A DNA stretch of 64,000 bases from a virus. Taxonomy: Duplodnaviria > Caudoviricetes. The number at the start of each line of letters is the position of its first letter. Within the stretch, counting starts at the first letter, position 1. Made by a program: the position numbers and the translations under genes. Below, piece by piece: positions 37,742 to 37,930 of this stretch. Location: IMG/VR virus record IMGVR_UViG_3300049595_005065. The stretch is one strand, 5' to 3'. The notes beneath the pieces are model-generated. The model worked only from the letters and a program-made list of their open reading frames with translations. It was not told where the DNA came from and did not search any database.

Positions 37742-37930
37742 AGCCGCACGTGTCGGCTCGGCACCCAAGTCGTGAGTGGGTCATAACCACGAGGTCAGTA
37801 GCGTTTCATTTGCTTCGTTCTAAACGCGTACTGGAAGTCGTAACAAGGAAGGATCCTGTGGCGCGGGCCCCGGGCGCAATTCGGTTGCGCGGAGTATCTC
37901 CTCCAGGTTCAAATCCTGGCGGGGCTCATT
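37742..37930 (+). ncRNA. candidate composite ncRNA: Met(CAU)-like anticodon arm, 16S decoding-site 15-mer and anticodon-less tRNA-like cloverleaf
   Basis: GTGG-GTCATAA-CCAC + AGGTC (37776-37796); 11-bp hairpin 37796-37833; GAAGTCGTAACAAGG (37834-37848); cloverleaf 37865-37928. Confidence 0.6.
37865..37928 (+). tRNA. 64-nt tRNA-like element lacking an anticodon loop
   Basis: Acceptor GGGCCCCG/CGGGGCTC, D arm GCGCAA-TTCGG-TTGCGC, mini arm GGAG-TAT-CTCC, T arm CCAGG-TTCAAAT-CCTGG. Confidence 0.6.

What the first reader, a model, noticed from the sequence alone, without database searches (positions are those of the whole stretch)
37865..37928. Anticodon-less 64-nt tRNA-like cloverleaf (mascRNA-like processing signal?)
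Seen: 8-bp acceptor GGGCCCCG/CGGGGCTC plus A, a 6-bp D stem, a 4-bp mini arm GGAG-TAT-CTCC replacing the anticodon arm, and a canonical T arm whose CCAGG/CCTGG stem matches both tRNAs at 31.5 kb. Established: RNase P and CCA-adding enzyme recognise the acceptor/T half, and mascRNA and bacterial Y RNAs are tRNA mimics without a working anticodon. Inference: it either lets RNase P release the upstream ~120-nt RNA or acts as an anticodon-nuclease-proof tRNA decoy.
Basis: partly seen in the sequence, partly recalled or inferred. Interest (0 to 1): 0.62.

Follow-up and report, generated by a model that had tools for sequence, protein, structure and literature searches.

The report
Anticodon-less tRNA remnant capping phage RNA
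A lake-water phage keeps only the upper half of a former tRNA (no anticodon arm) directly behind a newly recognised, strongly conserved structured RNA, most likely as a cutting signal for the host's tRNA-processing enzymes, as mascRNA does for MALAT1 in human cells.

Summary
Window 37865-37928 folds as described: an 8-bp acceptor, a D-like arm, a 4-bp stub and a canonical T arm (z = -4.8). It is not a chance fold and not a decaying pseudogene.

The element always lies directly 3' of a ~140-nt structured RNA (37725-37864: hairpins P0 and P1, an H-type pseudoknot with P2, then P3 and P4). This RNA matches no Rfam family. I found it in 23 complete loci of uncultured phages. Covariation is strong: 94% of cells paired, 21 of 34 pairs with double changes, 0 of 500 shuffles as good.

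In 13 loci a normal tRNA-Gln(UUG) follows the RNA, and in one a tRNA-Gln-like gene with anticodon UGU. In nine loci an anticodon-less tRNA-like element (TLE) follows. The RNA never stands alone.

The TLEs keep the acceptor, T arm and D-loop GG, with compensatory changes (8 relatives: 94% paired, 6 of 18 double changes, 0 of 500). One TLE (L125) still has the tRNA-Gln acceptor. The stub is present or absent among close relatives.

Best reading (about 0.55): a tRNA-Gln reduced to an RNase P/RNase Z handle that defines the 3' end of the upstream RNA. No RNA data exist, so processing is inferred.

The parts
37139..37741 (+). DEDDh 3'-5' exonuclease gene. It is the usual upstream neighbour of the RNA module, and its last codons overlap hairpin P0.
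   Evidence: Pfam RNase_T PF00929 and PHROG 192. NCBIfam gives only sub-threshold DnaQ/PolC-type hits. The orthologue in L040 best matches RNase T, also below threshold. It is adjacent to the leader in most loci but missing in L051, L052 and L060.
37725..37738 (+). P0 hairpin of the upstream ('leader') RNA: GGCU / AGUC with a 6-nt loop. It lies inside the end of the exonuclease reading frame (stop codon at 37739-41).
   Evidence: Read from the alignments. The pair is U-A in the window and C-G in L001/L002. The tRNA-Gln group has GGGAG/CUCCC, GGGCG/CGCCC and similar. This hairpin was not in the covariance model.
37742..37758 (+). P1 hairpin: AGCCG / CGGCU.
   Evidence: Helix 1: 96.9% of cells paired, and 4 of 6 pairs change on both sides.
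37763..37792 (+). H-type pseudoknot. ACCC (37763-66) pairs with GGGU (37778-81), which lies in the loop of P2. P2 is UCGUG (37770-74) with CACGA (37788-92). The loop bases AG, GU and UAAC are invariant.
   Evidence: Helices 2 and 3. P2 is 98.8% paired, with 3 of 5 pairs changed on both sides. The variable pseudoknot pair is A-U, G-C, C-G or G.U in different phages.
37795..37834 (+). P3 long hairpin with a one-base bulge. Its apex is not conserved in the window's clade.
   Evidence: Helix 4: 10 of 12 pairs change on both sides, 92.7% paired.
37837..37864 (+). P4 hairpin with an invariant GGA in its AGGA loop (37850-53). Its 3' strand ends one base before the tRNA-like element. It contains the 15-nt string identical to the 16S rRNA 1492 region (37834-37848).
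   Evidence: Helices 5 and 6. The 16S-like 15-mer is exact only in the window; relatives keep only GAAGUCGU.
37865..37928 (+). Anticodon-less tRNA-like element (TLE). Parts:
- acceptor 37865-72 with 37920-27
- D-like arm 37874-90, with G37883 and G37884 in its loop
- 11-nt stub 37891-901 in place of the anticodon arm
- T arm 37903-19
- A37928 at the discriminator position
   Evidence: Exactly one copy was found in the 64-kb window and in each of the two TLE-bearing contigs searched whole.
37952..38560 (+). Downstream ORF of 202 aa with no family match. It is not conserved at this position in relatives.
   Evidence: In L001, L002, L118, L119, L121 and L125 a different gene follows (269 aa in the four loci with called genes: L118, L119, L121, L125). 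The spacer after the TLE is only 38-43% identical.

Best explanation
The 64-nt element is the upper half of a former tRNA, most likely tRNA-Gln(UUG). It keeps the acceptor stem, a remodelled D arm and the T arm. I read it as a processing handle.

Proposed steps (all inferred):
1. The exonuclease gene, the ~140-nt structured RNA, the element and the next gene are transcribed together.
2. Host RNase P recognises the acceptor/T-stem stack and the D-loop/T-loop elbow. It cuts at the 5' edge of the element, either at 37864/37865 or at 37865/37866.
3. The upstream RNA is left with a 3' end closed by helix P4.
4. RNase Z, or an endonuclease plus exonuclease trimming, frees the 3' side and the downstream mRNA.

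Shown here: the fold, its conservation and covariation, its obligatory position behind the conserved RNA, and its replacement by a true tRNA-Gln in relatives.

Inferred: co-transcription, the cuts themselves, any CCA addition, and what the upstream RNA does.
For: 1. Position. The leader RNA (model R2, 66-152 bits) occurs in 23 complete loci. It is always followed within a few bases by a tRNA or a TLE: tRNA-Gln(UUG) in 13, a tRNA-Gln-like gene with anticodon UGU in one (L126), and a TLE in nine. It is never found alone. In L051 it is flanked on both sides, by tRNA-Lys upstream and tRNA-Gln downstream.

2. The leader is a real structured RNA: 94% of cells paired against 80% in shuffles, 21 of 34 pairs with double changes, 0 of 500 shuffles as good, slid controls 29-48%.

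3. Selection on the TLE.
- Its arms are 72-84% identical between the window and L001/L002. Fourfold-degenerate sites of the neighbouring gene are 54-57% identical, and the spacer after the TLE 38-43%.
- In 8 relatives, 94.4% of cells are paired, 6 of 18 pairs carry double changes, and 0 of 500 shuffles reach this.
- The D-loop GG and the T loop UUCRANU are present in all nine TLEs.

4. What was lost is exactly the anticodon arm. The window and L127 keep a 4-bp stub. L118, the window's sister at 88-89% protein identity, and five others have only a 4-6-nt linker.

5. L125 has a different 53-nt TLE that still carries the tRNA-Gln acceptor UGCCCGG/CCGGGCA followed by U.

6. On the exonuclease tree, tRNA-bearing loci nest among TLE-bearing ones. 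At least 2 state changes are needed, and a single TLE clade is rejected at p-AU 0.008.

7. The complete 204-kb genome of the L001 phage has tRNAs Thr, Thr, Lys and Asn but no tRNA-Gln. Decoding was given up while the upper half was kept.

8. Precedent. The conserved D-loop guanosines and T loop form the elbow by which RNase P and RNase Z recognise mascRNA (PMC11693755). Plant mitochondrial t-elements define mRNA ends in the same way (PMC1920247). Bacterial RNase P already matures phage M3 RNA and C4 antisense RNA (PMC11143913).
Against: - There is no RNA evidence of any kind, so cleavage, ends and CCA addition are untested.
- No CCA is encoded.
- The acceptor is 8 bp in the window but only 6 invariant bp plus a variable end in relatives.
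- In L001 the stem can extend to about 13 bp with a bulge. That would put the expected cut inside a helix.
- A bare acceptor/T minihelix can be cut by RNase P. So retention of the D-like arm could also reflect another partner.
- The module is absent in some close relatives (L122, L128). L123 has the tRNA-Gln without the leader.
- The exonuclease tree need not reflect the history of the RNA, because phage genomes are mosaic. The AU test group was also chosen after the tree had been seen.
Confidence: 0.55

Rival explanations
1. The element is not cut off. It stays attached as the 3' domain of one composite ~200-nt RNA. There it would protect the 3' end from exonucleases, or recruit a tRNA-binding protein (for example the CCA-adding enzyme, EF-Tu, TruB or an RNase T-like enzyme) to the leader.
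For: - The leader and the tRNA/TLE are always contiguous.
- The full elbow is kept, not just a minihelix.
- In L001 the acceptor helix can extend across the expected cut site.
- The stable tRNA fold has been proposed to protect bacterial Y RNAs from nucleases (PMC4201824).
- The usual neighbouring gene is a DEDDh exonuclease, and its L040 orthologue best matches RNase T, though below threshold.
Against: - In 14 loci the partner is a tRNA gene, and the tRNA-Gln genes tested (59; 37, 48, 98) score 62 bits on the Rfam tRNA model. Such tRNAs must be released by RNase P to function. The default fate of the junction in this family is therefore cleavage.
- The helix extension in L001 is not conserved in the window, L002 or L118.
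Confidence: 0.2
2. After release, the small TLE RNA has its own function in trans, as has been proposed for mascRNA. It could be a decoy or ligand for a host factor that reads the tRNA upper half. This includes the first reader's idea of a tRNA decoy against host defence.
For: The TLE is conserved, with an intact elbow and a stabilised 5-7-bp D stem, in two apparently independent versions: the window type and the L125 type.
Against: - It never occurs apart from the leader, and exactly one copy was found in the 64-kb window and in each TLE-bearing contig searched whole.
- It has no anticodon loop, so it cannot mimic the target of an anticodon nuclease.
- Its acceptor end varies between relatives. 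That argues against a conserved aminoacylation identity: there is no G3:U70, and G-1:C73 occurs only in the window and L118.
Confidence: 0.12
3. The element is a plain tRNA pseudogene, a neutral relic of tRNA-Gln that is simply decaying.
For: - Relatives carry an intact tRNA-Gln in the same slot.
- The window's clade has lost tRNA-Gln decoding.
- Some relatives have lost the whole module.
Against: - Conservation is well above the neutral level.
- Compensatory changes occur in all three helices.
- The T loop and D-loop GG are invariant in nine elements spanning 59-89% protein identity of the neighbouring gene.
- The damage is confined to one arm and is repeated.
Confidence: 0.05

Closest known systems
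mascRNA / menRNA at the 3' ends of vertebrate MALAT1 and MEN-beta (Rfam RF01684; PMC11693755, PMC8457004)
   Same: - It is a small tRNA-like RNA with an acceptor stem, a T arm and two D-loop guanosines that form the elbow, and it has no decoding anticodon loop.
- It lies directly 3' of a longer structured non-coding RNA.
- In mascRNA, RNase P cleavage at its 5' edge creates the mature 3' end of the upstream RNA. The same logic is proposed here.
   Different: - There is no homology. The Rfam hit is 23.9 bits against a threshold of 42.5 and aligns only the acceptor and T arm.
- The host is a bacteriophage, not a vertebrate nucleus.
- Here the tRNA ancestor is still visible in sister phages.
- mascRNA keeps a long anticodon-like stem, whereas most TLEs have none.
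- Processing is not shown here.
t-elements of plant mitochondria (PMC1920247)
   Same: - They are non-canonical tRNA-like cloverleaves embedded in longer transcripts.
- They are recognised by the conserved T-arm motif GGTTCRANYCC, which the window's GGTTCAAATCC satisfies.
- They act as RNase P / RNase Z signals that set the 3' and 5' ends of neighbouring RNAs. Canonical tRNAs do the same job at other genes.
   Different: They occur in organelles and flank mRNAs, with mapped ends. Here the setting is a phage, the upstream partner is a dedicated structured non-coding RNA, and no ends are mapped.
Bacterial Y RNA YrlA and tmRNA (tRNA-like domains lacking an anticodon; PMC4201824, PMC3929946)
   Same: They mimic the acceptor, D and T arms without decoding. 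M. smegmatis YrlA is cut by RNase P and receives CCA.
   Different: - The topology differs. In YrlA and tmRNA the rest of the RNA emerges from the anticodon-arm position. Here the TLE is a closed module placed 3' of the other RNA.
- No YrlA or tmRNA match was found by Rfam at E up to 10 or by ARAGORN.
- No Ro60/SmpB link was examined beyond that.
Phage RNAs matured by host RNase P (phi80 M3 RNA, P1/P7 C4 antisense RNA, T4 tRNA-cluster RNAs; PMC11143913)
   Same: They are phage non-coding RNAs whose ends are made by the host's tRNA-processing enzyme.
   Different: As far as I know, none of these is a conserved non-coding RNA coupled to a reduced tRNA lacking its anticodon arm. No sequence or structure similarity was tested or found.

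Membership tests
Canonical tRNA (Rfam RF00005) | Four-arm cloverleaf with a 7-nt anticodon loop, scoring at or above 29 bits | tested here: not met
   No RF00005 match in either the gathering search or the E<=10 search, and no match in the L001 phage record at this spot. The anticodon arm is replaced by a 4-bp stem with a 3-nt loop. The ARAGORN 'tRNA-Ala' call uses a poorly paired acceptor and reads the D-like arm as the anticodon arm.
Canonical tRNA (Rfam RF00005) | Acceptor stem stacked on a 5-bp T stem, T loop UUCRANY, and GG in the D loop | tested here: met
   These features are present in all nine TLEs.
mascRNA-menRNA (RF01684) | Sequence/structure match at or above the gathering score of 42.5 bits | tested here: not met
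   23.9 bits, E = 0.012. Only the acceptor and T arm align.
mascRNA-menRNA (RF01684) | Released from the 3' end of a longer non-coding RNA by RNase P, then RNase Z, then CCA addition | not testable with these tools
   No RNA run is listed for this DNA. The position 3' of a conserved structured RNA is met.
tRNA-Sec (RF01852) | 8-bp acceptor, 6-bp D stem, UCA anticodon arm and long variable arm; score at or above 47 bits | tested here: not met
   14.4 bits. An 8-bp acceptor and a long D stem are present, but there is no anticodon arm. The eighth pair is not conserved in relatives.
Plant-mitochondrial-type t-element (functional class) | Non-canonical cloverleaf carrying the T-arm motif GGTTCRANYCC within a longer transcript | tested here: met
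   GGTTCAAATCC at 37906-37916. The motif definition is from PMC1920247.
Plant-mitochondrial-type t-element (functional class) | Its 5' and 3' ends coincide with mapped ends of neighbouring RNAs | not testable with these tools
   No transcript data are available.
YrlA / bacterial Y RNA; tmRNA | Match to the family model, with the tRNA-like domain joined to the rest of the RNA through the anticodon-arm position | tested here: not met
   No Rfam hit at E<=10 in 37650-38050. ARAGORN finds no tmRNA. Both acceptor strands flank only the D and T arms.
New leader-RNA family (model R2, defined here) | P1, the pseudoknot with P2 and its invariant loop bases, P3 and P4 with a GGA loop, followed by a tRNA or TLE | tested here: met
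   The window scores 89.1 bits, E = 1.5e-26, over the full length of the model.

The most novel reading that the evidence does not exclude
The leader RNA plus tRNA/TLE may be a previously undescribed phage non-coding RNA system. In it, a pseudoknotted ~140-200-nt RNA depends on a tRNA-shaped 3' handle for its biogenesis. In some lineages that handle has evolved, at least twice, from a working tRNA-Gln into a minimal mascRNA-like element. This would be a prokaryotic-virus counterpart of MALAT1-mascRNA, caught with its evolutionary intermediates.

The leader itself has several notable features: invariant pseudoknot loop bases, a GGA hairpin loop, and the motif AAGUCG at the start of three helices. 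It could therefore be a protein- or ligand-binding regulator or an anti-defence RNA.
Probability: 0.45. Interest if true: 0.78.

Novelty: new variant of a known kind. Interest (0 to 1): 0.66.

Why it matters
tRNA-like processing handles are known from vertebrate nuclear lncRNAs and from plant mitochondria. A conserved one in bacteriophages has not, to my knowledge, been described.

Here the whole evolutionary series survives in sister genomes:
- a full tRNA-Gln;
- a tRNA-Gln-like body with an altered anticodon arm;
- a 4-bp stub in place of the arm;
- a bare linker.

The series shows directly which parts of a tRNA are needed once decoding is abandoned: the acceptor/T stack and the elbow. That is the recognition surface of RNase P and RNase Z.

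The finding also uncovers a new, well-supported structured RNA family in large freshwater phages. That family has a clear experimental handle: in vitro RNase P cleavage, Northern blots and pull-downs.

Tried and rejected
- **Known RNA families.** Rfam gave nothing for the leader or the element, either at gathering thresholds on the whole window or at E<=10 on 37650-38050. It also gave nothing at E<=1 on four relatives, apart from their tRNAs and the weak mascRNA and tRNA-Sec hits. So there is no YrlA, tmRNA, T-box, riboswitch or ribozyme match.
- **ARAGORN 'tRNA-Ala(tgc)'.** Rejected as a forced fit.
- **D-arm-less tRNA with anticodon UCG** (reading GCGCA-AUUCGGU-UGCGC as an anticodon arm). 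Rejected. That loop is 5-8 nt in relatives, and it aligns with the D arm and keeps the GG.
- **Aminoacylation identities.** There is no G3:U70. A tRNA-His-like G-1:C73 eighth pair exists only in the window and L118.
- **16S rRNA mimic.** The 15-mer at 37834-48 is exact only in the window; relatives keep about 8-10 nt, partly inside helix P4. No SSU model hit was found.
- **Anticodon-like hairpin with loop CAU (GUGG/CCAC), noted by another reader.** The conserved, covarying pairing is P2 plus the pseudoknot instead.
- **Coding potential of the spacer.** Length differences in P3 are not multiples of three.
- **Integration-site relic.** Both acceptor strands are present, there is no duplicated tRNA half, and the L001 phage has direct terminal repeats. 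This was not pursued further.
- **Searches that found nothing real.**
  - The metagenome contigs pattern scan gave 2 chance hits.
  - The genome-contig scan of about 185,000 species gave 49 pattern hits, none a true leader.
  - GenBank phages matched only in the tRNA-Gln part; one search gave no match.
- **RNA evidence.** No RNA holder is listed. Laying DNA contigs of four lake or freshwater runs gave identical fragments and no variants.
- **Rooting the exonuclease tree.** Distant homologues gave only long, unreliable branches.

Full report
**1. The observation**

The sequence at 37865-37928 is as described. It has an 8-bp acceptor (one G.U) followed by A37928, and a 6-7-bp D-like stem with loop UUCGG. 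In place of the anticodon arm there is a 4-bp/3-nt stub. The T arm is canonical (CCAGG-UUCAAAU-CCUGG).

ViennaRNA returns exactly this cloverleaf as both the minimum-free-energy and the centroid structure. The values are -36.7 kcal/mol, 70% of the ensemble and z = -4.78, and 0 of 200 shuffles fold as well.

ARAGORN forces a 'tRNA-Ala(tgc)' onto 37851-37928. Rfam's tRNA model does not match. Only sub-threshold hits appear: mascRNA at 23.9 bits (threshold 42.5) and tRNA-Sec at 14.4 bits (threshold 47). Both align just the acceptor and T arm.

**2. Setting**

The window is a phage-like, one-strand gene array. It comes from an uncultured lake-water phage: the DNA is held in lake and freshwater metagenomes, and the longest contig carrying the neighbouring protein is 208 kb.

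The element lies in a 210-nt gap. Upstream is a DEDDh exonuclease gene (37139-37741). Downstream is an ORF with no family match (37952-38560). Genes for an HldE-like enzyme and for SbcCD are nearby.

**3. Relatives**

I searched with the exonuclease protein, with conserved DNA patterns, and by exact-protein contig look-ups. This produced a series of related phage loci.

In all of them the whole spacer is conserved, not just the cloverleaf. I built three covariance models:
- R1 covers the whole spacer.
- R2 covers the upstream 'leader' only.
- R3 covers the tRNA-like element only.

R2 finds the leader at 66-152 bits in 23 complete loci and in two cut by contig ends. What follows the leader is:
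- a normal tRNA-Gln(UUG) in 13 loci (62 bits on Rfam tRNA in the four loci searched; all 13 called tRNA-Gln(UUG) by ARAGORN);
- a tRNA-Gln-like gene with anticodon UGU and a 6-bp anticodon stem in L126;
- an anticodon-less tRNA-like element (TLE) in nine loci: the window, L001, L002, L118-L121, L125 and L127.

The leader never stands alone. L123 has the tRNA-Gln without a leader, and L122 and L128 have neither. In L051 a tRNA-Lys lies directly upstream of the leader, so tRNAs flank it on both sides.

No leader was found in one genome from each of about 185,000 prokaryote species. It was also absent from GenBank phages and from the JGI metagenome sample, at the sensitivity of exact pattern plus model.

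**4. The leader is a real structured RNA**

Its window coordinates are:
- P0: 37725-38, overlapping the last codons of the exonuclease gene (stop codon 37739-41).
- P1: 37742-58.
- An H-type pseudoknot: ACCC (37763-66) pairs with GGGU (37778-81) inside the loop of P2. P2 is 37770-74 paired with 37788-92.
- P3: 37795-806 paired with 37822-34.
- P4: 37837-49 paired with 37854-64, with an invariant GGA in its loop.

On 18 sequences, 94.0% of cells are paired, against 80.1% in shuffles. Of 34 pairs, 21 carry changes on both sides. None of 500 shuffles reaches any measure, and slid controls give 29-48% paired.

The variable pseudoknot pair is A-U, G-C, C-G or G.U in different phages. No Rfam family matches the leader.

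Two earlier readings of parts of this RNA do not survive the comparison:
- The 'CAU anticodon-like hairpin' (GUGG/CCAC) is not the conserved pairing.
- The 15-nt identity to the 16S 1492 region (37834-48) is exact only in the window. Relatives keep GAAGUCGU, which lies partly inside P4.

**5. The TLE is under selection and is not decaying**

Between the window and L001/L002, fourfold-degenerate sites of the exonuclease gene are 54-57% identical. The spacer after the TLE is 38-43% identical. The TLE arms are 72-84% identical.

Across eight relatives, with the window left out, the figures are as follows:
- 94.4% of cells are paired.
- 6 of 18 pairs have changes on both sides, spread over all three helices.
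- 0 of 500 shuffles reach this.
- Slid controls give 32-50% paired.

With only three sequences the test had little power (33 of 500 shuffles).

All nine TLEs keep the T loop UUCRANU and a GG in the D-like loop. They fold as a three-way junction of acceptor, D-like hairpin and T arm. Exactly one TLE was found in the 64-kb window and in each of the two TLE-bearing contigs searched whole (L001's complete genome and L002's roughly 75% complete contig); every other R3 hit there is a true tRNA or a weak chance match.

**6. Origin and direction of change**

The slot is occupied by tRNA-Gln(UUG) in 13 loci across two deep branches of the family.

L125 carries a different, 53-nt TLE. Its acceptor (UGCCCGG/CCGGGCA) and trailing U are those of the tRNA-Gln. 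Its D stem is lengthened in the same manner as in the window type.

The window and L127 share the stub (GGAG-UAU-CUCC and GGAG-UUU-CUUC), although their exonucleases are only 59% identical. L118, the window's sister at 88-89% identity, has only a 5-nt linker. So do the five members of the other subclade, with 4-6 nt.

On the exonuclease tree, the tRNA-bearing L123/L124/L126 clade is sister to the seven-member window clade (support 95/98). L127 and L125 branch outside. At least two state changes are needed, and a single TLE clade is rejected (p-AU 0.008).

Three caveats apply:
- The group was named after the tree had been seen.
- Phage mosaicism could move the RNA independently of the gene.
- The root is not established.

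In sequence, the window-type D and T arms resemble the phage's own Asn and Thr tRNAs at least as much as tRNA-Gln. R3 scores them at 25-31 bits, against 18-20 bits for tRNA-Gln. Descent from tRNA-Gln therefore rests on position and on L125, not on overall similarity.

The complete 204-kb genome of the L001 phage has four tRNAs (Thr, Thr, Lys, Asn) and no tRNA-Gln. Decoding was abandoned while the upper half was retained.

**7. Mechanism**

The parts retained are the coaxial acceptor/T stack and the D-loop-GG/T-loop elbow. RNase P and RNase Z use these parts to recognise and measure tRNAs, and they suffice for mascRNA and menRNA (PMC11693755).

Plant mitochondrial t-elements, defined by the T-arm motif GGTTCRANYCC, set mRNA ends in the same way (PMC1920247). 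The window's GGTTCAAATCC fits that motif. Bacterial RNase P is already known to mature phage M3 RNA and C4 antisense RNA (PMC11143913).

Where a true tRNA-Gln follows the leader, RNase P must cut at that junction for the tRNA to work. So the junction is a processing site by default. The simplest reading is that the leader needs that cut to obtain a defined 3' end closed by P4. When tRNA-Gln decoding became dispensable, only the handle was kept.

This reading is inferred. No RNA run is listed for this DNA, no CCA is encoded, and the outer acceptor pairs vary.

Three rivals remain:
- The element stays attached, as a protective or protein-recruiting domain.
- It has a function of its own in trans after release.
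- It is a neutral relic (disfavoured).

**8. Novelty**

Functionally the element works like mascRNA or a t-element. It is not a member of either family: the sequence test failed, and the biological setting differs. It is also not a tRNA, tRNA-Sec, YrlA or tmRNA.

I file it as a new variant of a known kind: a tRNA-derived processing handle in bacteriophages, with its evolutionary intermediates preserved. The upstream leader RNA is an undescribed structured RNA family. Its function remains open.

Other first readers of this scan noted the same stretch in overlapping windows of the same genome.

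Noticed in passing
window 37725-37864, and L018, L034-L042, L051, L052, L060, L064, L118-L121, L124-L127: A conserved ~140-200-nt structured RNA made of hairpins P0 and P1, an H-type pseudoknot with P2, then P3 and P4. It has no Rfam match and is found only in uncultured, mostly freshwater, phage contigs. The motif AAGUCG sits at the 5' strand of P1, P2 and P4. The pseudoknot loop bases AG, GU and UAAC are invariant.
   Followed up: yes
window 37846-37857, and the equivalent GCA-AGGA-UGC hairpin in the tRNA-Gln group: The inner hairpin of P4 presents an invariant GGA in a 4-nt loop. 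In most relatives it reads CA-NGGA-UG, which matches, from memory, the CsrA/RsmE binding consensus. The tRNA-Gln group has a second GGA in the P3 apex. It may be a protein-binding site; this was not tested.
   Followed up: no
window 37834-37848: GAAGTCGTAACAAGG is identical to the conserved 16S rRNA segment around A1492/A1493 (recalled from memory). It is exact only in this phage. L002 has 14 of 15 and L001 12 of 15 matching bases, and more distant relatives keep about 8-10. No SSU model hit was found.
   Followed up: partly
L126 1930-2002: Behind the leader is a tRNA with the D and T arms of the family's tRNA-Gln, but with anticodon UGU (a Thr anticodon) and a 6-bp anticodon stem. This may be an anticodon switch, or an early stage of loss of the arm.
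   Followed up: no
L123 1817-1887; L122; L128: Close relatives of the exonuclease gene differ here. L123 has tRNA-Gln directly after the gene with no leader. L122 and L128 have neither RNA. The module is therefore accessory.
   Followed up: partly
L051 12506-12840: tRNA-Lys(UUU), the leader and tRNA-Gln lie head to tail. No exonuclease gene is present in this locus, nor in L052 and L060. The leader module can move independently of that gene.
   Followed up: partly
window 37139-37741 and L040 2501-3073: The DEDDh exonuclease is ambiguous between a DNA and an RNA enzyme. The window's copy best matches PolC/epsilon-type models. The L040 orthologue best matches RNase T and oligoribonuclease. All hits are far below the curated cut-offs. 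A GenBank cyanophage homologue is annotated as an RNase T homologue.
   Followed up: partly
L071, L073, L074, L076, L078, L087, L090, L091, L098, L114, L115 (Anaerococcus genomes): The degenerate search pattern hit many separate contigs of Anaerococcus kampingiae and related genomes. This suggests an unrelated dispersed repeat that happens to contain the motif.
   Followed up: no
tRNA-Gln genes of L018, L034, L035, L039-L042, L051, L052, L060, L064: The phage tRNA-Gln(UUG) is nearly identical in sequence across phages whose neighbouring exonucleases are only about 40-60% identical. Only L036 has a compensatorily changed acceptor and anticodon stem. The constraint on this tRNA is unusually strong.
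   Followed up: no
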